Below, piece after piece: positions 1 to 49,961 of a stretch of 49,961 nucleotides of DNA; the first letter of the stretch is position 1; each line of letters begins with the position of its first letter. Location: assembly GCA_043820325.1 (NCBI GenBank), contig JBDREB010000019.1:1-49961 (forward strand), read 5' to 3'. Below the pieces are notes generated by a model. That model worked only from the letters and a program-made list of their open reading frames with translations. It had not been told where the DNA came from and did no database searches. A program made the position numbers and the translations under genes. Source of the stretch: Planctomycetota bacterium. Its GTDB lineage: Bacteria > Planctomycetota > JBDREB01.

Positions 1-134
1 GGTAACCATGCTTCCTCGCAAGTCCTTGTAGCTGCGGGGCTTGACCCCGCCTCCGGATGGGCGACCGCAAGGGTCGCAGCTACGGGGAAAAGCGCGCACA
101 CAGTAGGATTGTGGACTTTTTGCGAGTCCGTCAA
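1..134. repeat. Copy A (cut by the window edge) of a 134-bp near-identical intergenic repeat; copy B is 1381..1514
   Basis: By eye 133/134 nt are identical to 1381..1514 (pos 10 is g vs a). Nested stems at 28..83: GTAGCTG/CAGCTAC encloses CGGGG-CTTGA-CCCCG and GCGACC-GCAAG-GGTCGC. Ends with the arm CTTTTTGCGAGTCCGTCAA (116..134). Confidence 0.85.
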
Positions 135-156
135 TGCTCAAGTAAGGACAAGAACT

Positions 157-169
157 GCCGCCCGGCGGC
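157..169 (-). terminator. Possible intrinsic terminator downstream of truA
   Basis: GC hairpin GCCGCC-G-GGCGGC. On the minus-strand RNA it is followed by a U-rich stretch (AGUUCUUGUCCUUACUU). The same hairpin recurs after asd (1540..1552). The stem is short, so this is a weak call. Confidence 0.3.
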
Positions 170-175
170 CACATT

Positions 176-239
176 CGACTTTTCGTCTATTGGACTTTTA
201 GACTTTTAGACCTTCCTGCTTTCCGACTTCCCGACTACT
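176..239. repeat. Array of about 8 tandem 8-mers (sGACTTTy on the + strand) running into the truA stop codon
   Basis: cgactttt cgtctatt ggactttt agactttt agaccttc ctgctttc cgacttcc cgactact in strict 8-nt register. Confidence 0.7.
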
Positions 240-996: not shown

Positions 997-1135
997 GGGC
1001 GCACGAGAGGACAGGTTACGGGGAAATATCGAATATCGAACCCTTCGACTGCGCTCAGGGTCCATGACACCGCCCCGAGCCGCCGAGGGCGCCCGGGGTC
1101 CCGAGCGAAATATTTCCGTATGCCGACCGCCGTAG

Positions 1136-1209
1136 GGGCAGGTTTTAAACCTGCCCGCCTTGCACGGATCGCGGGCTGGAACGAAGACGGGCGGGTCGCA
1201 GACCCGCCC
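1136..1209. repeat. Two REP-like GC-rich palindromes
   Basis: GGGCAGGTTT-T-AAACCTGCCC (1136..1156, preceded by GTAG) and GGGCGGGTC-GCA-GACCCGCCC (1189..1209, followed by CTAC). Confidence 0.7.
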
Positions 1210-1318
1210 CTACAACGCGGGAGAGGAATAACCCGGATCCCCCTGGGAACGCCGGGGGCCACTTCGGCTCCGCCAATCGGGAGATACGAAGGCAAGTCAC
1301 AATGCTCAATGCTCAACA

Positions 1319-1514
1319 TTGACGGACTCGCAAAAAGGATCTTTGTCATGCTCCACAGGTCCCGGGACGGTCCTGCCGGTGGTAACCATACTTCCTCGCA
1401 AGTCCTTGTAGCTGCGGGGCTTGACCCCGCCTCCGGATGGGCGACCGCAAGGGTCGCAGCTACGGGGAAAAGCGCGCACACAGTAGGATTGTGGACTTTT
1501 TGCGAGTCCGTCAA
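1319..1514. repeat. 196-bp element bounded by a perfect 19-nt inverted repeat (MITE-like or long-stem element); its right part is copy B of the 134-bp repeat
   Basis: Left arm TTGACGGACTCGCAAAAAG (1319..1337) is the exact reverse complement of right arm CTTTTTGCGAGTCCGTCAA (1496..1514). A related arm pair occurs at 46146..46301. Confidence 0.8.
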
Positions 1515-1539
1515 CATTCAACTCTCAAGAATAAGAACA

Positions 1540-1552
1540 GCCGCCCGGCGGC
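1540..1552 (-). terminator. Possible intrinsic terminator downstream of asd
   Basis: Same GCCGCC-G-GGCGGC hairpin as 157..169. On the minus-strand RNA it is followed by UGUUCUUAUUCUU. Confidence 0.35.
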
Positions 1553-1558
1553 TTCAAT

Positions 1559-1606
1559 CGACTTTGCGTCTTTTCGACTTTGGGACTTTTCGACCCTCCG
1601 CCTTCT
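1559..1606. repeat. Array of about 6 tandem 8-mers (sGACTTTk) ending at the asd stop codon
   Basis: cgactttg cgtctttt cgactttg ggactttt cgaccctc cgccttct in 8-nt register. Same position relative to the stop codon and hairpin as the array at 176..239. Confidence 0.7.
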
Positions 1607-1608
1607 TT

Positions 1609-2604
1609 CTATACAAACAACTCCGCGATCTGTACCGCGTTAAGCGCCGCGCCCTTGAGGAGCTGGTCGCCGACCATCCAGAGGTCGAAGGTGTTGTCCT
1701 GGGACTGGTCCTTGCGCACGCGGCCGACCATGATATCGTACTTGCCGGAGGCGTCGATGGGCATGGGCCAGCGGTTCTTGGAGGGATCTTCGAGGACGGT
1801 GACGCCGGGGGCCTTGCGCAGGAGCGCGTAGATGCCCTCGACGGTGGCCGGCTTCTTGAACTGGACATTGACGGCCTCGGAATGGGCCCGCAGGACAGGG
1901 ACGCGCACGCACGCGGCGTTGATGCGGAGCGTGGGATCGCCGTAGATCTTACGGGTCTCCTTGAGCATCTTGGTCTCTTCTTCGCAGTACCCGTCGGAAC
2001 CGAAGGCGGAATTGTGCGGAAAGAGGTTGAAGGCGTACTGGAACGGGATCACGGTGCGGATGTAGGGCTTGCCCGCCAGAATGGCCGCGGACTCCTCCTT
2101 GAGTTCCTCCATGGCCTTGGCCCCGGCGCCCGAGGCGGCCTGGTAGGTGCTGATGTGCATGCGCGCGACGCCGAAGGCCTGGTAGAGGGGGTACATGGGC
2201 ACGGCCATGATGATGGTGGAGCAGTTGGGGTTGGCGATGGTGCCCTTGTGCTTCCTGGCGTCCTGGGGGTTGACCTCGGGGATCACCAGCGGGGTCCCCT
2301 CTTCCATGCGGAAGGCGGAGGAGTTGTCGATCATGAGGGCCTTGGAGGCCACGACCGCGTCGCGGAATTCACGGCTGCGGCCGGCGCTGGCGCTGAAGAG
2401 GGCGAAGTCGACGCCCTTGAAGGAGTCCTTGGTGAGGGTGTCGACCGTGTATTCCTTCCCCTTGAAGGTGATTTTCTTGCCCTTGGACCGCTCGGAGGCC
2501 AGGAGGGTGAGCTTGGAGATGGGGAACTTGCGGTCGGCCAGGACGTTCAGAAATTCCTGTCCCACCGCGCCGGTGACGCCGGCAATGGCCACATGAAACC
2601 CCAT
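1609..2604 (-). CDS. asd: Aspartate-semialdehyde dehydrogenase (short type)
   Basis: N-terminal VAIAGVTGAVGQEF dinucleotide-binding motif, active-site NPNCSTI, C-terminal AHSEAVNV His context, 331 aa. It sits directly upstream of truA, as the asd paralogue usg does in E. coli, so a usg-like role cannot be excluded. Confidence 0.85.
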   Translation of the reverse strand: MGFHVAIAGVTGAVGQEFLNVLADRKFPISKLTLLASERSKGKKITFKGKEYTVDTLTKDSFKGVDFALFSASAGRSREFRDAVVASKALMIDNSSAFRMEEGTPLVIPEVNPQDARKHKGTIANPNCSTIIMAVPMYPLYQAFGVARMHISTYQAASGAGAKAMEELKEESAAILAGKPYIRTVIPFQYAFNLFPHNSAFGSDGYCEEETKMLKETRKIYGDPTLRINAACVRVPVLRAHSEAVNVQFKKPATVEGIYALLRKAPGVTVLEDPSKNRWPMPIDASGKYDIMVGRVRKDQSQDNTFDLWMVGDQLLKGAALNAVQIAELFV

Positions 2605-2647
2605 ATGCAGACCTTTCTATGCAACGGGGGCCCGCCGGGGCCCGGTA

Positions 2648-2983
2648 TTATTTCTTCTCGGCCGGGGCGCTTTGGGCCGCCGGTGCCGCCTTGTCCGCCG
2701 CCGGTGCCGCCTTGTCCGCCGCCGGCACCGCCTTGTCCGCGGCCGGCGCGGGCGGGGAGGCGGCATCCTTCTCCCGCTTGGCGCCCTTTTTGTAGGAATC
2801 GGAACGGTAATCGGTCTGGTAAAAACCGCTGCCCTTGAAGATCACGCCGACACCGCCGCTGATAAGGCGCTCCAGCTTGTGCTTGCCGCAGGCGGGACAG
2901 ACGCGCAGGGCCTTGTCCATGATGGACTGGTAGGCATCGAGTTCGTGCCGGCAGGCTTTACAGCGGTATTCATAGGTCGGCAT
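2648..2983 (-). CDS. FmdB-family zinc-ribbon protein with an Ala/Pro/Lys repeat tail
   Basis: MPTYEYRCKACRHE...RVCPACG gives two CxxC pairs typical of the FmdB/CxxC_CxxC_SSSS family. The C-terminus carries ADKA(A/V)PA x3. Confidence 0.8.
   Translation of the reverse strand: MPTYEYRCKACRHELDAYQSIMDKALRVCPACGKHKLERLISGGVGVIFKGSGFYQTDYRSDSYKKGAKREKDAASPPAPAADKAVPAADKAAPAADKAAPAAQSAPAEKK
2676..2738. repeat. 21-bp tandem repeat x3 inside the FmdB-like gene
   Basis: gccgccgg(t/c)(g/a)ccgccttgtcc repeated three times in frame (ADKAxPA). Confidence 0.85.
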
Positions 2984-2998
2984 GGTTCATCCTCGCTG

Positions 2999-3595
2999 TC
3001 ACTGGGGATCGGCGGCCGGAGTTGCTTCGGGTACGGCATCCGCGGCGGGGGCCGGACGACGCGCCACGATCACTTTGGCCGGTATGATAACGGTGTCACG
3101 GAACGCGTAGCCGGTCTCCACCACCTCGATGACGGTCCGCTCGGCCACATCCGGGTTGGCCACGGTCATGACCGCCTCCTGGCGTTCGGGATCGAATGGC
3201 CGGCCGGCGCCCTCGATGGGCTGGACCTGGTGGGATTCAAGGATACCCTGGACCTGGGCCTGGATCGCCGCCCATCCGGCCGGATCGCCGGCGCCGCCGG
3301 CCGCGATGGCCCGCGCGATGCTGGACCGGACGGCCAGGAGGTCCTTCAGGGAGCGCTTGACCGTGCCGAGCTCCCAGAGGTCCCGGTCGCGCGCCGCCCG
3401 CTTTTTGTAATTGTCGAATTCAGCCGCCATGCGCAGGAACCGGTCCTTGTAGTCGCCGCATTCGCATGCCAGGGCCTCGTACATTTCACGGGTGACGGCC
3501 GGCGGGGCTTCAGGAGCAGGGGCCACAGGCGCCGGGCCGGCGGCGGCAGGCACCGCCGCCTCACGGTCCTTCGGTTTCTTCTTCTTATCGTTCAC
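2999..3595 (-). CDS. grpE: Nucleotide exchange factor GrpE
   Basis: GTG start at 3593..3595 with AAGGA about 10 nt upstream. EFDNYKKR motif and a C-terminal beta-domain (VIEVVETGYAFRDTVIIPAKV). Confidence 0.9.
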   Translation of the reverse strand: MNDKKKKPKDREAAVPAAAGPAPVAPAPEAPPAVTREMYEALACECGDYKDRFLRMAAEFDNYKKRAARDRDLWELGTVKRSLKDLLAVRSSIARAIAAGGAGDPAGWAAIQAQVQGILESHQVQPIEGAGRPFDPERQEAVMTVANPDVAERTVIEVVETGYAFRDTVIIPAKVIVARRPAPAADAVPEATPAADPQ

Positions 3596-3723: not shown

Positions 3724-3851
3724 TGCCACGAAGTCACTAAGGCACAAAGGGTGGAGGGTTCCGATCCAAACCCAATCACCGGTCTTACCTTTGTGACTTC
3801 GTGACTTTGTGGCAAAATATCTTTTCTCCAATTGCGTGACTTTGTGGCAAA
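3724..3851. promoter_or_regulatory. 27-nt imperfect inverted repeat plus direct repeat GTGACTTTGTGGCAAA in the dnaJ-grpE spacer
   Basis: Arm 3724..3750 (TGCCACGAAGTCACTAAGGCACAAAGG) pairs with arm 3788..3814 (CCTTTGTGACTTCGTGACTTTGTGGCA), 23/27 complementary, with a 37-nt loop. GTGACTTTGTGGCAAA occurs at 3801..3816 and 3836..3851. Internal 8-nt periodicity GTGACTTC/GTGACTTT/GTGGCAAA. Confidence 0.5.
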
Positions 3852-5177: not shown

Positions 5178-6797
<1,620 letters not shown>

Positions 6798-6817
6798 TGC
6801 CATATCCTCCTATCGTT

Positions 6818-7140: not shown

Positions 7141-8787
<1,647 letters not shown>

Positions 8788-38943: not shown

Positions 38944-40140
<1,197 letters not shown>

Positions 40141-40193
40141 GACCAGCATCTCCTAATCTAAACCAATGATTCCATCTCGAAGATCGCAACAAA

Positions 40194-45165: not shown

Positions 45166-45909
45166 TCAACCCGACGGTCCTTCCCACACCAAAACCGGCG
45201 TAAAACCCGCCTGGTCGGCCGCCACCAGCCGGCAGGCCGCCCCGCCGGCGGCCAGGCCGGCCGTCCCCGCATGGCCGGGCCCGTGGACATGGCCGAAAAC
45301 ACACAGGTCGATCCGGTACCGCTCAAGCAGGCCCGCCGCCCGGCCGGGCGTGCCATCGGCGCCCACGGGCGGGAAATGGAGCAGTGCCACCCGGGGCGCG
45401 GCCCCGGCCGGCAGGGCGGCGAGGCTCAGTTCCAGCCGGTGCATCTCCCGCGCCAGAAGCCGTTCCCGTTCAGCCGGGTCCTCGGCCCGCGGCTCCGGGT
45501 CCGCGGCGACCGCCCCCGGCCAGGCGACGGCCGGGTCGTTCCAATACCGGGTACCGGCAAAGCCCGCCCCATCGATCAGGCAGGCATCATTGTTGATAAT
45601 GAATATACCCGGCGGCAGGACCGCCCGCACCTTGGCGGCCGACTGCCACCAGTAATCATGGTTGCCCCGCACCAGCACCTTACGGCCCGGCCGGGCGGCG
45701 AGCCAGACCAGGTCATCCCGGACATCGGCCAGGCGCATGGCCCACGAAAGGTCCCCCGGCACCAGCACCACATCCCCGGCCGCCACGGTCGCATCCCAGG
45801 CCCGGGCGATCCGCGCCGCATGGTCGCGCCATGCTTCACCGAAAATGTCCATGCTCTTGCCCGTCCCCCCCGGCAGGTGCAGATCGCCGATGGACCAGAT
45901 CATGGGCAT
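45166..45909 (-). CDS. Calcineurin-like metallophosphoesterase
   Basis: Motifs GDLHL, VPGDLSW, GNHDYWW, LLHFPP and FGHVHGPG. Start at 45909 (MPMIWS) or 45903 (MIWS). Confidence 0.8.
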   Translation of the reverse strand: MPMIWSIGDLHLPGGTGKSMDIFGEAWRDHAARIARAWDATVAAGDVVLVPGDLSWAMRLADVRDDLVWLAARPGRKVLVRGNHDYWWQSAAKVRAVLPPGIFIINNDACLIDGAGFAGTRYWNDPAVAWPGAVAADPEPRAEDPAERERLLAREMHRLELSLAALPAGAAPRVALLHFPPVGADGTPGRAAGLLERYRIDLCVFGHVHGPGHAGTAGLAAGGAACRLVAADQAGFTPVLVWEGPSG

Positions 45910-46126
45910 TGCCGATTGTGGATTGCGGATTGCGGATTGCGGATATGATGGCGACGACCGGTGACCGACATGCGGCAATTATGCCGTTCAGCACACGGGG
46001 TTCGCGGGAACCGTGGGAATTGCCGATTGCCAATTGCCGATTGCCGATTGAAGATATGATGGCGACGACCGGCATTCGATGTGCGGCAATGATCCCATGC
46101 GCCCCGTGGGATTCGCGGGGGTTTCC
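45908..46126. repeat. Two tandem units of about 111 bp, each headed by five ATTGCSG-type heptamers
   Basis: Heptamer arrays at 45908..45942 (attgccg attgtgg attgcgg x3) and 46019..46053 (attgccg attgcca attgccg x2 attgaag). Both are followed by atatgatggcgacgaccgg... and a GC hairpin. Confidence 0.8.
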
Positions 46127-46145
46127 GATCTGAAATCTTAAATCT

Positions 46146-46301
46146 GACGGAGTCGCAAAAAGTCAATTCCCCCTCTTCTGGAGGGACGCGCTCCGTCGCG
46201 TCCGTTTTTGTTCCTCCTATGAACGGCATCCCCGGCCACGACAGAGCGTGGCCCTCCATAGTGGAATCGGACCCTTGAAATCGACTTTTTGCGACTCCGT
46301 C
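46146..46301. repeat. 156-bp element bounded by a perfect 19-nt inverted repeat related to the arms at 1319..1514
   Basis: GACGGAGTCGCAAAAAGTC (46146..46164) pairs with GACTTTTTGCGACTCCGTC (46283..46301). The interior is unrelated to element 1 but has hairpins GGACGCG-ctccgt-CGCGTCC and GCCACG-acagag-CGTGGC. Confidence 0.8.
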
Positions 46302-46465
46302 CAATCTGCAATCTGCAATCTGCAATCGGCAATGATCTCGCGCGGTATCTGTGGGCAATCCGACTGGTGGGTACAAAGCAGGGGCGAAAGATTGGCGACC
46401 TCCGAACCGCGATCCTTGATCGGGGATTTCCAATCTGCAATCTGCAATCGGCAATCGGCAATTCA
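46302..46465. repeat. Two arrays of five heptamers in the opposite orientation (CAATCKG), 129 bp apart
   Basis: 46302..46336: caatctg x3, caatcgg, caatgat. 46431..46465: caatctg x2, caatcgg x2, caattca. The last array abuts the arfB stop codon. Confidence 0.8.
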
Positions 46466-46810
46466 TCAGTCCCACGCCTTCCCCGACCGGCCGGCCTTGA
46501 ACCCGCTGCGGCGGCGCTTGGTCGAAAGCCGGTCCTCGCGCGAGCCGGCCGTCGGCCGCGTGCGGAAGCGTTTTTTGCGCGGCCGGTTCAGCACCTCCAG
46601 CTTTTCGGCCAGCCGCTTGAGCGCGATCTGCCGGTTCTCCGCCTGGCTCCGCGTCTCCGCGCACCGGACCGTGATCCCGCTGGGCGGGTGGACCATCCGC
46701 ACCGCCGTCTCCACCTTGTTGCGGTGCTGGCCCCCCGGGCCCGAGGCGCGGTAGAACGCCATTTCCACCTCGCGCGCGAGCTGGTCAAGGTCGGTCGAAT
46801 ACCGGGGCAT
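46466..46810 (-). CDS. arfB: Alternative ribosome-rescue factor ArfB (peptidyl-tRNA hydrolase, YaeJ-type)
   Basis: Trimmed to ATG 46808..46810: [39 protein letters not shown]... plus an Arg/Lys-rich C-terminal tail; 114 aa. Confidence 0.85.
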   Translation of the reverse strand: MPRYSTDLDQLAREVEMAFYRASGPGGQHRNKVETAVRMVHPPSGITVRCAETRSQAENRQIALKRLAEKLEVLNRPRKKRFRTRPTAGSREDRLSTKRRRSGFKAGRSGKAWD

Positions 46811-46901
46811 GGTCAGTCCTCCGTCATCGGAAACTTCCATTATACCGACCGGCATTCGATTGCAAGGCCAAAACGCCCGCCGCGGCCATGGCAGAGGTTC
46901 G
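46651..46901. repeat. Direct repeat copy 1 (5' part of arfB plus its upstream region); partner is 48833..49083
   Basis: Colinear alignment by eye. 7 differences in the 160 coding nt, with the first ~90 nt identical. The upstream ~90 nt are more diverged but keep TTGCAA-N15-TATAAT and GGCCATGGCAGAGGTTCG. Confidence 0.85.
46839..46865 (-). promoter_or_regulatory. Sigma70-like promoter of arfB
   Basis: Minus strand reads TTGCAA-tcgaatgccggtcgg-TATAAT (15-nt spacer), about 28 nt upstream of the ATG. Confidence 0.5.
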
Positions 46902-46963
46902 CTCCTGCCGGGGTTCAAAGCCGCGTTTATTCGGGTGTTGTGGATCAATTGTAAGGACTTCCG

Positions 46964-47001: not shown

Positions 47002-48693
47002 TTATGCGCGACGCTCATACCACGCCCCTTTTTTGATTCCGTGGCGAACCAATGTTCCGTCTTCGGCCAGTCTCGTGAGAAGGCGGTAAGCCTGGTCCGG
47101 GGACAGCCGACACAACTCCGCCGCCTCCCGCCGCGTAATCCGCCCGTGTTTTTCCGCGTATTGCAGTACCATCTGCACCTGCTGCAGCGGTTCGAACCCC
47201 CGTTGGCGTACATACGCGGCCTTGTCGCCCAACGCTCTATAGGCGGCGGCCGACAGGTGCCAGATGCGGCCTTTGTTTCGGCCGCGGTCTTCAACAAGGC
47301 CCGCTTCCACCAACTTGCGCAGGATTGCACGGGCTTCGGATTCCGGTTTTTGGGTCAGGCGGGCGGTTTCTTCGGTGGGCAGGCTTCGGTCACGCCACAG
47401 GGCATTGAGTACAAGCATATCATCCAGGCCCAATTCGCGTCCGTTTTGCGCCTCGGTGACCAGCATGCGGACAAATTCCAGATTGGCTTTGCCGCCGGGA
47501 ATGTTTACGACGACACCGGTATGGTCACTGCGGTCATACGACGGCGCCGGGCGGCCATTGCGGAGTTGTTCGTAATAAATGGTGTCTATGCCCCGGGCCG
47601 TTCGTTCCACGATGCCGGCGCGTTTGAAGGCATCCGCCAGCAGCGGGTTGCGCGGTCGCGGGGCGGTGACCAGCAGGTTGTCCAGGCGCACGCCTTCCGG
47701 GAAACCGCCCGGATTGCTGATCGCGATATGGTCCTGATGCCACTGGAAGTGCACCGCGCCCAGCCGCAGGTAGTCGCGGTGGATGAGGGCATTGGCCAGG
47801 GCTTCGCGGAGCGCCCGTTCCGGGTAGTCGGGTATGCCCACACGCAGCATGCCGACCATGAGTTCCTGCTCGCGGTTGCGGGCGCGGATGCGGCCTTCGA
47901 TCTCCTCCATGACCCGTACAAGGGGCCATGTAAAAAAGTCGTTTACTTCCACATCAATCCCACGCATCACCTGGAATGCGGTTTCATGGCTGGGGAGATG
48001 ACGGCGGATTATGTTTTCCTTGCCGAAGAGCAATATGGCCGCAAGGCGTATACCGCGGACCGATCCGTTGGCATCTATGACACCCAGGGCTTTGGCGAGT
48101 TCCATGTCGGGAAGTTCGAGCAGGGATTCGTCACTGCGGCCCCGCCGCTCGCGGACACTGCGACGGTAGCGCTCGAATTCCAGCGGGTCAAGATCCTCCC
48201 ACCGCACCGAAGCGACGATCTGCGCCGAAGGGTCGAGCAGGCCGCGGTCCGCCTGGAACGATTGGACCGCATACGCATCCATCGGCAGGCATGCCGGCTT
48301 GCCATCGCCGCCGATGGTCCGGCGCAAAAACACACCGTCGCTTGTGCCCACCAGTTGCCGTGTGGCCGGGATCTCAATAACCAGCACCGGGTGGCCATCG
48401 ACGGGAACCGTTTCCACGCTTACGGTCAAAGGCGACCGCGTACGACCGGCGATCATCGCGGCCAATTTGCCGGGATCCGTGGCTTTATCGTGCCGCGAAC
48501 GGGCGCCGGTGATACGGCCGTCCTTTTCGATGCCGATCAGGAGATACCCGGGCTCTGTGCCGGGTCGATTGGCCAGGCAGACAACGGCTTCAACCAGGTC
48601 GTGATCATTCAGGGGTGCTTTCTGTTCACCCTTGAACTCGACCGCCAGGGTTTCACCGGCTGCGATCAGACGCCCCAATGTTTCCGGGGTCAT
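47002..48693 (-). CDS. COG2865-type protein: AlbA_2 (Schlafen-like) N-domain + HATPase_c_4 + C-terminal winged-helix domains
   Basis: N-terminal [11 protein letters not shown]... (AlbA_2 signature E-x-L-E-F-K); central [45 protein letters not shown]; C-terminal wHTH-like repeats. Its ATG overlaps the upstream stop codon (ATGA). Confidence 0.8.
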
Positions 48694-48998
48694 GGCGCCT
48701 CTTTCCAGAAACCGAGGCCACGGAGGTTTTTAACGATTTCTTTATCCAGCTTTGCGGCTTCAGATTGCTGGTCGCGCAACTGGGCTATGAGCCGCTTCAT
48801 CTTGGCCTCGAAAGGTTCGCCGTCATCCTCCTGCGTCTCCGCGCACCGGACCGTGATCCCGCTGGGCGGGTGGACCATCCGCACCGCCGTCTCCACCTTG
48901 TTGCGGTGCTGGCCGCCCGGACCCGAGGCGCGGTAGAACGCCAGCTCCACCTCGCGCGCGAGTTTGTCAAGGTCGGTCGTATACCGGGGCATGGCCAT
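48690..48998 (-). CDS. Chimeric ORF: ArfB GGQ N-domain fused to an unrelated C-terminus (possibly a rearrangement remnant or pseudogene)
   Basis: About the first 56 aa are near-identical to arfB at 46466..46810 (GGQ kept). After ...VRCAET it continues [47 protein letters not shown] instead of the basic tail. Confidence 0.6.
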
Positions 48999-49541: not shown

Positions 49542-49885
49542 AGTGCGATTTCCTTTCCGCCAATGACGATCTTTCCGCGGATTTTAAGCCCGACCGCACG
49601 GATACAAACACGCCGCATCGGCTCCGTTTCGACATCATAATACACGCGTAGTGCGCCGATGCGCAATTCCCAGGGCGCGACTGGATTCGGTCGCATGCGT
49701 TTCCTGTTGCGCGTTTCCACATCCGGTTGAAATATCAGGCGATCATCAACCGCATCAAGAATGCATACCTGGTCGCGCTTCCGCAAACATTTCAAATGGT
49801 CGCCGGCGGTTGGAGAATACTCCACTTCAGATTTCCTGATCCCTGTGGGGTGGACTGATGGTTTTCCGGAACGGGTTTGGCGCAT
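49538..49885 (-). CDS. Type II toxin, RelE/ParE superfamily
   Basis: ...PWELRIGALRVYYDVETEP.RRVCIRAVGLK...; 115 aa. Located upstream of the antitoxin. Confidence 0.7.
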   Translation of the reverse strand: MRQTRSGKPSVHPTGIRKSEVEYSPTAGDHLKCLRKRDQVCILDAVDDRLIFQPDVETRNRKRMRPNPVAPWELRIGALRVYYDVETEPMRRVCIRAVGLKIRGKIVIGGKEIAL

Positions 49886-49961
49886 TTTCCGCGTGACAAA
49901 TGGGCTGCGGCGGCTATCCTTTCTGGGGTCTGACTTCAGGATGATTGGTCATGCACCAGAT

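What the first reader, a model, noticed from the sequence alone, without database searches (positions are those of the whole stretch)
1319..1514. Element bounded by a perfect 19-nt inverted repeat that recurs 45 kb away with a compensatory base swap
Arms TTGACGGACTCGCAAAAAG and CTTTTTGCGAGTCCGTCAA flank 158 bp here. At 46146..46301 the arms GACGGAGTCGCAAAAAGTC and GACTTTTTGCGACTCCGTC flank 118 bp of unrelated sequence. The shared 17-nt core differs at one position (C vs G), and the change is mirrored in the partner arm of each element, so pairing is preserved. The interiors differ but the arms co-vary. That pattern points to selection on a stem (RNA or cruciform DNA) or on a paired recognition site, rather than a conventional MITE family, which would share its interior. 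A third right arm lies at 116..134; its left partner would fall before the window start.
Basis: seen in the sequence. Interest (0 to 1): 0.65.

Follow-up and report, generated by a model that had tools for sequence, protein, structure and literature searches.

The report
Ordinary miniature transposons sharing terminal repeats
The two inverted-repeat-bounded elements are small non-coding transposons (MITEs) from two multicopy families that share one type of terminal repeat and carry 6-bp target-site duplications, so this is ordinary mobile DNA and not a conserved RNA or DNA stem.

Summary
The arms at 1321-1337/1496-1512 and 46146-46164/46283-46301 are terminal inverted repeats (TIRs) of two MITEs. 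E1 (192 bp) is flanked by a perfect 6-bp duplication, AACATT. E3 (156 bp) is flanked by AAATCT/CAATCT.

Both interiors are multicopy in the source metagenome: E1 at about 55-90x single-copy depth and E3 at about 3-6x. The truncated copy at the window start shares E1's interior at 97% identity.

The TIR GAYGRnnYCGYAAAAAGTC also bounds at least 40 short elements (76-315 bp) in Desulfobacterota MAGs. These have many unrelated interiors. 21 of 46 pairs have exact 6- or 7-bp duplications, against 0.6% exact 6-bp matches in the control, at an AANNTT-like target.

Across these pairs the arms show no covariation. Position 7, the "swap", is unpaired in 12 of 38 distinct pairs. Rfam finds nothing, and RNA depth fits passive read-through.

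No autonomous transposase was found. An ISDol1-type (ISNCY) partner is only an untested lead. Verdict: a new member of a known kind, of low interest.

The parts
1321..1512 (.). E1: complete 192-bp MITE. It has a 17-bp perfect TIR (1321-1337 / 1496-1512) and no room for a transposase.
   Evidence: Searches give the arms. One search shows the interior repeated at 1-141. In some searches the interior contig depth is 8525 against about 91-103 for flanking genes in X1, and about 55-65x in X12 and 35-55x in X3. Contigs break at 1319-1321 and 1512-1513. Unique-depth contigs bridge both junctions (1184-1344 and 1489-3000).
1315..1320 (.). Left copy of the target-site duplication AACATT of E1
   Evidence: Read directly. 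A 6-bp TSD is the modal length in the superfamily.
1513..1518 (.). Right copy of the target-site duplication AACATT of E1
1408..1463 (.). Module nested inside E1: two GTAGCTGCG-led hairpins in inverted orientation (REP/REPIN-like). It is a separate and more abundant repeat.
   Evidence: One search shows both halves start with GTAGCTGCG. In one search the summed depth is 114,000-137,000 here against 8,525 for the rest of the interior; overlapping short contigs inflate the sum. Searches show joints 1463->1406/1407 with alternative 24-25-nt spacers.
1..132 (.). E0: second E1-family copy, truncated on the left by the contig end. Its right TIR is at 116-132, followed by AATGCT (133-138).
   Evidence: D8: 1-141 matches 1381-1521 at 97%. 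One search shows the window is the whole 49,961-bp contig.
46146..46301 (.). E3: complete 156-bp MITE of a different interior family. It has a 19-bp perfect TIR (46146-46164 / 46283-46301) and is a near-complete foldback.
   Evidence: One search gives MFE -89.6 kcal/mol, z -10.1. One search shows self versus reverse complement at 65% over 166 columns, with only the arms shared with E1. In one search interior contig depths are 272-557 against 93 for unique DNA in X1.
46140..46145 (.). Left flank AAATCT of E3 (target-site duplication, 5 of 6 identical to the right copy)
46302..46307 (.). Right flank CAATCT of E3 (target-site duplication)
1539..1553 (-). Terminator-like hairpin AGCCGCCGGGCGGCT plus a T-rich tail, between the asd stop (1609) and E1. 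It is not part of the MITE and shows that E1 lies downstream of the gene's own terminator.
   Evidence: A twin hairpin at 157-169(-) lies between the truA stop (235) and E0.

Best explanation
[quoted passage not shown] They are short, non-coding, non-autonomous DNA transposons.

Shown:
- They belong to two interior-defined families within one TIR-defined superfamily, with ends 5'-GAYGRnnYCGYAAAAAGTC.
- The elements have terminal inverted repeats, flanking 6-7-bp duplications of an A/T-rich AANNTT-like target, high copy number and intergenic positions.

Inferred mechanism: a DDE-type transposase encoded elsewhere binds the roughly 19-bp ends. It excises or copies the element and joins it to a 6-7-bp staggered cut, and repair of that cut creates the duplication.

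The mirrored C/G difference between E1 and E3 is a family-specific variant at a TIR position the system tolerates. Both arms of each element probably carry it by descent. It is not a compensatory change maintained by selection on pairing.

In this 63% G+C, Planctomycetota-like groundwater bacterium the few A/T-rich intergenic stretches are the available targets. These stretches lie 3' of terminators and beside 7-8-nt micro-arrays. The elements are transcribed, if at all, passively by read-through.

The identity of the transposase is not established.
For: TIRs.

TSDs in the window: AACATT/AACATT for E1 and AAATCT/CAATCT for E3.

Most loci are Desulfobacterota MAGs. Most hits have an inverted partner arm separated by about 40-280 bp (element length 76-315 bp).

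TSD statistics over 46 pairs: 15 exact 6-bp, 6 exact 7-bp and 11 with 5 of 6 matching. The control, using flanks of different elements, gives 0.6% and 3.4%. Target composition is A22/26, A16/26, N, N, T14/26, T24/26.

Many interior families share only the TIR. Clusters have 10, 6, 5, 3, 3, 2 and 2 members, plus singletons.

Copy number: the E1 interior contig is at depth 8525 against 91-103 for neighbouring genes in X1. It is about 55-65x in X12 and 35-55x in X3. E3 pieces are at 272-557 against 93. Other copies have different flanks (loose ends; L094 and L095). One further E1 copy has flanks that combine to give TSD AGACTT: left ...CAGAC+TT and right AGACTTGGCTC.

No covariation and asymmetric ends.

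No Rfam family and no promoter-like site.

RNA: the E1/gene depth ratio is 30-40 in the metatranscriptome X2 and about 85-90 in DNA. Per-copy RNA is therefore below that of the neighbouring gene. One RNA contig runs from asd into the right arm.
Against: No autonomous element with these TIRs and a transposase gene was found in about 0.7 Mb of fetched loci or in plasmid or viral collections.

No empty (uninserted) site or excision footprint was seen in related metagenomes, so recent mobility is not directly demonstrated.

The arm-pair set is biased, because one arm of every MAG pair was selected by an exact pattern.

In the window's own lineage both arms are perfect. Some lineage-specific constraint on pairing therefore cannot be fully excluded from three copies.

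Copy numbers come from assembler word depth in metagenomes and may mix related strains.
Confidence: 0.9

Rival explanations
1. The arms form a selected RNA stem (structured non-coding RNA, terminator or processing signal) or a DNA cruciform. The C/G swap would then be a true compensatory change.
For: Both elements fold much better than shuffles: E1 z -4.5 and E3 z -10.1. Both arms are perfect in all window copies. Element sequence is present in a metatranscriptome.
Against: There is no covariation over 43 pairs. Positions 3-7 are often unpaired, with 10, 7, 11, 20 and 12 of 38 distinct pairs unpaired respectively. Pairing comes from positions that are invariant as sequence. Unrelated interiors and sizes from 76 to 315 bp share the ends. 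Target-site duplications have no place in an RNA-gene model. There is no Rfam match. RNA per copy is lower than for flanking genes. Strong folding is automatic for any TIR-bounded or foldback element.
Confidence: 0.04
2. The elements are REP/REPIN-type repeats mobilised by a RAYT (IS200/IS605-like Y1 transposase). The arms would be the REP hairpins.
For: They are an inverted pair of about 20-nt conserved units with a short spacer, highly abundant and intergenic. The genome does carry REP-like GTAG-led hairpin pairs, at 1132-1213 and nested in E1 at 1408-1463.
Against: The arms themselves are not palindromic hairpins and do not begin with GTAG. REPINs, as I recall from the literature, do not make target-site duplications, whereas these elements have 6-7-bp TSDs. 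The interiors are long and family-specific.
Confidence: 0.03
3. The paired arms are operator or binding sites for a host DNA-binding protein (a regulator or nucleoid protein). They would be conserved because of that role, not because of transposition.
For: The 12-nt inner core TCGCAAAAAGTC is conserved as sequence across phyla. The positions are intergenic.
Against: Hundreds of copy-equivalents have TSDs. The sites lie downstream of terminators and not at promoters. Copies occur inside phage contigs and overlap gene 3' ends. No consistent neighbouring gene class was seen.
Confidence: 0.03

Closest known systems
Bacterial MITEs in general, e.g. Correia elements of Neisseria, RUP of Streptococcus pneumoniae, Nezha of cyanobacteria, MITEAba12 of Acinetobacter (PMC6382973). 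General definition as in PMC11602168.
   Same: They are 50-800 bp, have no transposase, carry TIRs of at least 10-15 bp, have short TSDs, are multicopy, sit mostly between genes and often fold into long hairpins.
   Different: The TIR sequence (GAYGRnnYCGYAAAAAGTC), the 6-7-bp AANNTT-type TSD and the host range differ. Hosts here are Desulfobacterota MAGs plus a Planctomycetota-like groundwater lineage. I found no published description, but ISfinder and Dfam-type databases could not be queried.
TIR/TSD-defined MITE superfamilies of eukaryotes (Stowaway with Tc1/mariner, Tourist with PIF/Harbinger); comparison from general knowledge
   Same: Many families with unrelated interiors share only the terminal repeat and the TSD type, because one transposase class recognises them.
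   Different: Those are eukaryotic, with different transposases and TA or TWA duplications.
ISNCY family, ISDol1 group (type element from Desulfococcus oleovorans)
   Same: By my recollection of the ISfinder family table, this group makes 6-7-bp direct repeats. It is abundant in Desulfobacterales: 42 ISDol1-group elements are reported in Desulfotignum phosphitoxidans (PMC4046663). That matches the TSD length and the main host clade here.
   Different: Its terminal sequence could not be retrieved, and no transposase was found next to these TIRs. The link is a lead and not a result.
IS1634 family
   Same: It makes 5-6-bp A/T-rich target duplications (PMC2266710 Table 1).
   Different: Its ends start with C (C-----YT). 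The elements here start with GA, and a 7-bp TSD also occurs.
REP/REPIN elements
   Same: They are inverted pairs of short conserved units, highly abundant and intergenic.
   Different: The units here are not GTAG-led palindromes, and the elements carry TSDs. A REP-like pair does sit nested inside E1 (1408-1463).

Membership tests
MITE (non-autonomous DNA transposon) | Terminal inverted repeats of at least 10-15 bp | tested here: met
   The TIR is 17 bp and perfect in E1 and 19 bp and perfect in E3. Partner arms are present in most MAG loci.
MITE (non-autonomous DNA transposon) | Flanking target-site duplication of fixed short length | tested here: met
   E1 has AACATT/AACATT and E3 has AAATCT/CAATCT. 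Of 46 pairs, 21 have an exact 6- or 7-bp TSD and 11 more match at 5 of 6. The controls give 0.6% and 3.4%.
MITE (non-autonomous DNA transposon) | Small size and no transposase gene | tested here: met
   The window elements are 192 and 156 bp. Superfamily members are 76-315 bp.
MITE (non-autonomous DNA transposon) | Multiple dispersed copies sharing the interior within a family | tested here: met
   Window 1-141 matches 1381-1521 at 97%. Depth is about 35-90x unique for E1 and about 3-6x for E3. Copies with other flanks are L094 and L095. MAG families have 10, 6, 5, 3, 3, 2 and 2 members.
MITE (non-autonomous DNA transposon) | Presence/absence polymorphism (empty sites) showing mobility | tested here: inconclusive
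   No precise 'skip' joint was seen across E1 or E3 in 7 metagenomes. L094 carries E1 in the opposite orientation next to a paralogue of the 1141-1320 flank, with a 6-mer of AATGTT. This suggests independent insertion but does not prove it.
MITE (non-autonomous DNA transposon) | Cognate autonomous IS with the same TIRs and a transposase | tested here: inconclusive
   None was found in 93 fetched loci, plasmids or viral contigs. Whole genomes could not be searched for arm pairs 1-2 kb apart.
ISNCY / ISDol1-group derivative | 6-7-bp direct repeats (recalled from the ISfinder table, not verified here) | tested here: met
   There are 15 exact 6-bp and 6 exact 7-bp TSDs. The family value itself comes from memory.
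ISNCY / ISDol1-group derivative | TIR sequence matching that of ISDol1-group elements; ISDol1-type DDE transposase in the same genomes | not testable with these tools
Only indirect support exists: ISDol1-group elements are abundant in a Desulfobacterales genome (PMC4046663).
IS1634-family derivative | Ends C-----YT; 5-6-bp A/T-rich TSD (PMC2266710 Table 1) | tested here: not met
   The ends are GAYG... in 45 of 45 arms. The TSD is 6-7 bp. Only the A/T-rich nature of the TSD agrees.
REP/REPIN (RAYT-mobilised) | Short imperfect palindromes with a conserved GTAG-type 5' tetranucleotide; no TSD | tested here: not met
   The arms start with GAYG and are not self-complementary. TSDs are present.
Structured non-coding RNA family | Match to a curated family, or compensatory covariation supporting the helix | tested here: not met
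   Rfam finds only two tRNAs at gathering threshold, and only chance miRNA hits at E about 0.5. The covariation score is 0.088 against 0.104 in shuffles, and only 2 of 19 pairs change on both sides.

The most novel reading that the evidence does not exclude
The GAYGRnnYCGYAAAAAGTC ends define a large MITE superfamily that is so far undescribed. It spans at least two phyla (Desulfobacterota and a deep-branching Planctomycetota-like lineage) and also occurs in phage contigs. It reaches hundreds of copies per genome, and its autonomous partner is unknown and possibly a poorly characterised or new transposase group. A weaker variant is that, in the window's lineage, the unusually perfect arms are maintained because the hairpins have been co-opted, for example as 3'-UTR stabilisers or terminators.
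Probability: 0.12. Interest if true: 0.4.

Novelty: new member of a known kind. Interest (0 to 1): 0.15.

Why it matters
The main value is for annotation and assembly. These elements explain why the contig ends where it does, since short-read assemblies break at every copy. They also explain spurious ORFs and odd C-terminal extensions that read through the ends ('..DSQKV', '..DGLAKSP'), and why the intergenic DNA of this organism looks so repetitive.

The TIR/TSD signature gives a simple handle for masking these elements in Desulfobacterota and Planctomycetota-like MAGs. It also gives a handle for finding the responsible transposase.

As a caution for motif hunters: a base change mirrored in both arms of an inverted repeat does not demonstrate a selected stem when the arms are transposon ends.

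Tried and rejected
(1) Known RNA family. Rfam at gathering and E-value thresholds found nothing relevant.

(2) Stem covariation. I counted pairs on 43 arm pairs and found none.

(3) Autonomous IS.
- The candidate arm pair 2.3 kb apart in L065 encloses GAPDH and other host genes, not a transposase.
- Unpaired arms are followed by ordinary genes.
- Clustering ORFs across loci gave only ABC-ATPase-type paralogues.
- A relaxed arm regex with a TSD filter at 0.45-3.5 kb gave nothing.
- A viral-contig scan found only short MITEs, one inside a phage with terminase and DnaB.
- Plasmid BLAST of the TIR gave only chance hits.

(4) Literature. Searching the TIR as a text string gave chance primer hits only. 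MITE/Desulfo and ISDol1/ISNCY searches gave context but no TIR sequence. The FEMS IS review is not held.

(5) Extending the window leftwards to see E0's left end. Contigs carrying asd or truA are all shorter than the window and break at the repeats.

(6) Metagenome scan with E1's right end. It found only two short contigs.

(7) Empty sites in seven metagenomes. None were seen.

(8) Outward promoter in the TTGAC-containing end. There was no sigma-70-like match.

(9) Integron attC and CRISPR-repeat ideas. I dropped these on inspection. The neighbours are housekeeping genes, there is no array, and the elements have TSDs.

Full report
**1. Observation**

- GACGGACTCGCAAAAAG lies at 1321-1337(+), 1496-1512(-) and 116-132(-).
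- The G variant GACGGAGTCGCAAAAAG lies at 46146-46162(+) and 46285-46301(-).
- That makes five matches, against 0.01 expected from dinucleotide shuffles. Allowing three mismatches adds no further copy in the window.

The spacings are 158 and 118 bp. E1 and E3 share nothing but the arms.

Two details change the picture.
- Window 1-141 is 97% identical to 1381-1521 (D8). The 'third right arm' is therefore the right half of a second copy of the same element, interior included. The window is the whole contig (the window's EF-Tu sits on a longest contig of 49,961 bp), so the assembly stopped inside this repeat.
- The outer TT...AA of the '19-nt arm' is not part of the inverted repeat proper. The six bases left of 1321 (AACATT, 1315-1320) are repeated directly right of 1512 (AACATT, 1513-1518). 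E3 is likewise flanked by AAATCT (46140-46145) and CAATCT (46302-46307).

**2. Context**

The window is 63% G+C bacterial chromosome. It carries rpoB/rpoC-sized ORFs, a tuf gene, two tRNAs and two tandem groEL-sized paralogues, mostly on the minus strand.
- E1 lies between truA (235-996, PseudoU_synth_1) and asd (1609-2604, Semialdhyde_dh).
- E0 lies downstream of truA.
- In both cases a terminator-like hairpin (AGCCGCCGGGCGGCT at 1539-1553, and its twin GCCGCCGGGCGGC at 157-169) separates the gene's stop codon from the element.
- E3 lies between a gene ending at 46466 and one starting at 45903.

The organism's EF-Tu is only 74-77% identical to its best database relatives. The named ones are Pirellulales, Thermoguttaceae and 'Planctomycetes' MAGs. 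The source is therefore a deep-branching Planctomycetota-like bacterium, and the sequencing runs that hold it are mostly groundwater and drinking-water metagenomes.

**3. Copy number**

I laid metagenome contigs on the window.
- In run X1 the flanking genes sit at word depth 91-103. The contig covering E1's interior (1338-1427) is at 8,525, about 85-90x.
- The same element is at about 55-65x gene depth in X12 and about 35-55x in X3.
- Repeat contigs begin and end at 1319-1321 and 1512-1513. Unique-depth contigs bridge both junctions (1184-1344 and 1489-3000), so the insertion is real and not a mis-join.
- E3's interior pieces are at 272-557 against 93.
- Loose ends and two JGI contigs (L094, L095) show E1 and E3 ends joined to other flanks.
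- One further E1 copy can be pieced together with left flank ...CAGACTT and right flank AGACTTGGCTC, giving a 6-bp duplication AGACTT. This combination of contigs is an inference.

Both elements therefore belong to families that do share their interiors.

**4. The arms elsewhere**

I scanned one genome per species for GACGGANTCGCAAAAAGTC. Almost all loci are Desulfobacterota MAGs such as Desulfatirhabdium, Desulfobacterales and Syntrophales. A few are coding-sequence chance hits, for example L006, L018 and L068.
- Allowing mismatches, most hits have an inverted partner arm; the resulting elements are 76-315 bp long.
- Many hits lie at contig ends, as repeats do.
- By interior sequence the elements fall into clusters of 10, 6, 5, 3, 3, 2 and 2, plus 14 singleton elements (13 from MAGs, plus E3). 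They share only 20-28 nt of the ends with E1 and E3.
- A viral-contig scan found the same short elements, one inside a phage genome with terminase and DnaB genes.

**5. Target-site duplications**

For 46 arm pairs I compared the flanks.
- 15 have an exact 6-bp direct duplication.
- 6 have an exact 7-bp duplication.
- 11 more match at 5 of 6 positions.
- Pairing the left flank of one element with the right flank of another gives 0.6% exact and 3.4% 5-of-6 matches.
- The duplicated site is A/T-rich with an AANNTT-like profile: A 22/26, A 16/26, N, N, T 14/26, T 24/26.

This is the signature of DDE-type transposition into a staggered cut.

**6. Stem or recognition site?**

I aligned the two 19-nt arms of 43 elements and counted pairs.
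- 88.8% of cells pair, but shuffling the partners among elements gives 89.6%.
- The covariation score is 0.088 against 0.104, with 489 of 500 shuffles at least as high.
- Only 2 of 19 pairs ever change on both sides.
- The two ends differ systematically. One is GACGGAyTCGC.. and the other is mostly GATGRnnTCGY.. (T at position 3 in 33 of 45 partner arms). This resembles distinct IRL and IRR ends.
- Positions 1-2, 8-10 and 12-19 are conserved as sequence in both arms.

The pattern fits recognition of a conserved end sequence by a protein. It does not fit selection on base pairing.

One caveat is that one arm of each MAG pair was picked by an exact pattern, which biases the set.

The mirrored C/G in the window is best read as family ancestry. 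E3 is a near-complete foldback (MFE -89.6 kcal/mol, z -10.1), and it is 65% identical to its own reverse complement over 166 columns. Its ends are therefore probably alike by descent.

The strong folds (E1 z -4.5) follow automatically from the TIRs and nested hairpins.

**7. RNA**

Rfam gives no family. In the one metatranscriptome that holds the region (X2), genes are at about 8-12 and E1 pieces at 313-355. That ratio of 30-40 is below the DNA ratio of about 85-90. One RNA contig runs from asd through the terminator into the right arm. This fits passive read-through, or some DNA carry-over, and does not fit a dedicated abundant RNA. No sigma-70-like promoter is predicted in the elements.

**8. 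Mechanism and family**

Shown:
- TIRs and 6-7-bp TSDs at an A/T-rich target.
- Small non-coding size and high copy number.
- Many interior families.
- Occurrence in two bacterial phyla and in phage contigs.

Inferred: mobilisation in trans by a DDE transposase that binds the roughly 19-bp ends.

Not established: which transposase. I found no autonomous copy.

My best lead is the ISDol1 group of ISNCY, named after a Desulfococcus oleovorans element.
- I recall it as having 6-7-bp direct repeats.
- ISDol1-group elements are the most abundant IS class in the Desulfobacterales genome of Desulfotignum phosphitoxidans (PMC4046663).

IS1634 makes 5-6-bp A/T-rich TSDs but has ends starting with C (PMC2266710), so it does not fit. 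REP/REPIN membership fails because the arms have no GTAG-led palindromes and the elements have TSDs.

**9. Substructure of E1**

Positions 1408-1463 are two GTAGCTGCG-led hairpins in inverted orientation.
- Their summed depth in X1 is more than tenfold that of the rest of E1. The sum is inflated by overlapping short contigs.
- They occur with alternative 24-25-nt spacers in other arrangements.
- They look like a separate REP/REPIN-like repeat nested in the MITE before E1 amplified. The contig 1338-1427, which spans the junction, is itself at about 90x.

**10. Verdict**

It describes ordinary MITEs: two families of one TIR-defined superfamily.

The pattern of shared arms with unrelated interiors is what MITE superfamilies look like. 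The 'compensatory swap' is not evidence for a stem.

Novelty is limited to an apparently undescribed TIR/TSD class with an unidentified transposase. Interest is low.

Noticed in passing
window 177-211, 1025-1040, 1300-1316, 1558-1594, 3789-3811, 45908-45944, 46019-46050, 46128-46147, 46302-46333, 46431-46462: Short tandem arrays of 7-8-nt units sit in intergenic DNA, often directly against stop or start codons and against the MITE insertion sites. Examples are GACTTTTA, TCGACTTT, CAATGCT, ATTGCGG, ATTGCCG, CAATCTG and CAATCGG. The ATTGCGG run at 45908-45944 is at very high depth in other metagenomes (X12 1391, X16 3696, against about 0-5 for its neighbours), always with different flanks. The octamer arrays (GACTTTGCGACT...) resemble the inner TIR core GACTTTTTGCGA. 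Their function is unknown.
   Followed up: partly
window 1408-1463 (and 28-83 in the truncated copy): A REP/REPIN-like inverted pair of GTAGCTGCG-led hairpins is nested inside the MITE. It is far more abundant than the MITE itself in X1 and occurs with other spacers and arrangements elsewhere. No RAYT gene was looked for.
   Followed up: partly
window 1132-1213: There is a second REPIN-like doublet: GTAGGGGCAGGTTTTAAACCTGCCC and, inverted, GTAGGGGCGGGTCTGCGACCCGCCC. It is at about 20x unique depth in X1. One half scores as a terminator-like hairpin.
   Followed up: partly
window 1017-1121: Another small element is bounded by inverted repeats (TTACGGGGAAATATCG ... CGAAATATTTCCGTA). It is at about 16x unique depth in X1. 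It may be a different MITE family. Its TSD was not examined.
   Followed up: no
window 1141-1320 and L094 2068-2258: The left flank of E1 is itself a repeat. L094 carries an 89% identical copy, again abutting an E1 end, but with E1 in the opposite orientation and the reverse-complement 6-mer AATGTT. This could reflect nested repeats with a preferred target or inversion of the element. It is unresolved.
   Followed up: partly
window 45903-46008 / 46014-46119, and inverted matches at 46302-46334 and 46426-46464: A 111-bp tandem duplication (77% identity) lies upstream of the gene starting at 45903. Heptamer runs in inverted orientation lie on both sides of E3, making the whole 45904-46465 spacer a large imperfect palindrome (D18, I1, I2, I8-I10).
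   Followed up: no
window 49824-49961 and L094 10-147: The right end of the contig also matches another locus at 98.5% over 138 bp. Both contig ends therefore lie in repeats.
   Followed up: no
window 38944-40149 (tuf): EF-Tu is only 74-77% identical to the nearest of 5.8 billion database proteins. The named relatives are Pirellulales, Thermoguttaceae and Planctomycetes MAGs. The organism is a poorly sampled deep lineage.
   Followed up: partly
window 5178-6803 and 7141-8787; 46651-46815 and 48833-48997: Two tandem groEL-sized paralogues (541 and 548 aa; no family search run) are 72-80% identical at DNA level over the matched stretches (D2, D4, D5, D10, D15). A 165-bp segment is duplicated at 95% identity 2.2 kb apart, within the ORFs at 46466-46948 and 48690-48998 (D7).
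   Followed up: no
L065 4679-6400, L014, L005, L041, L055, L092 6190-7350: In MAGs and a phage contig, called or open reading frames run through the MITE end. This gives recurrent spurious peptide tails or heads such as ..TDSQKV, DGLAKSP and DGFAKSP. It is an annotation artefact worth masking.
   Followed up: no
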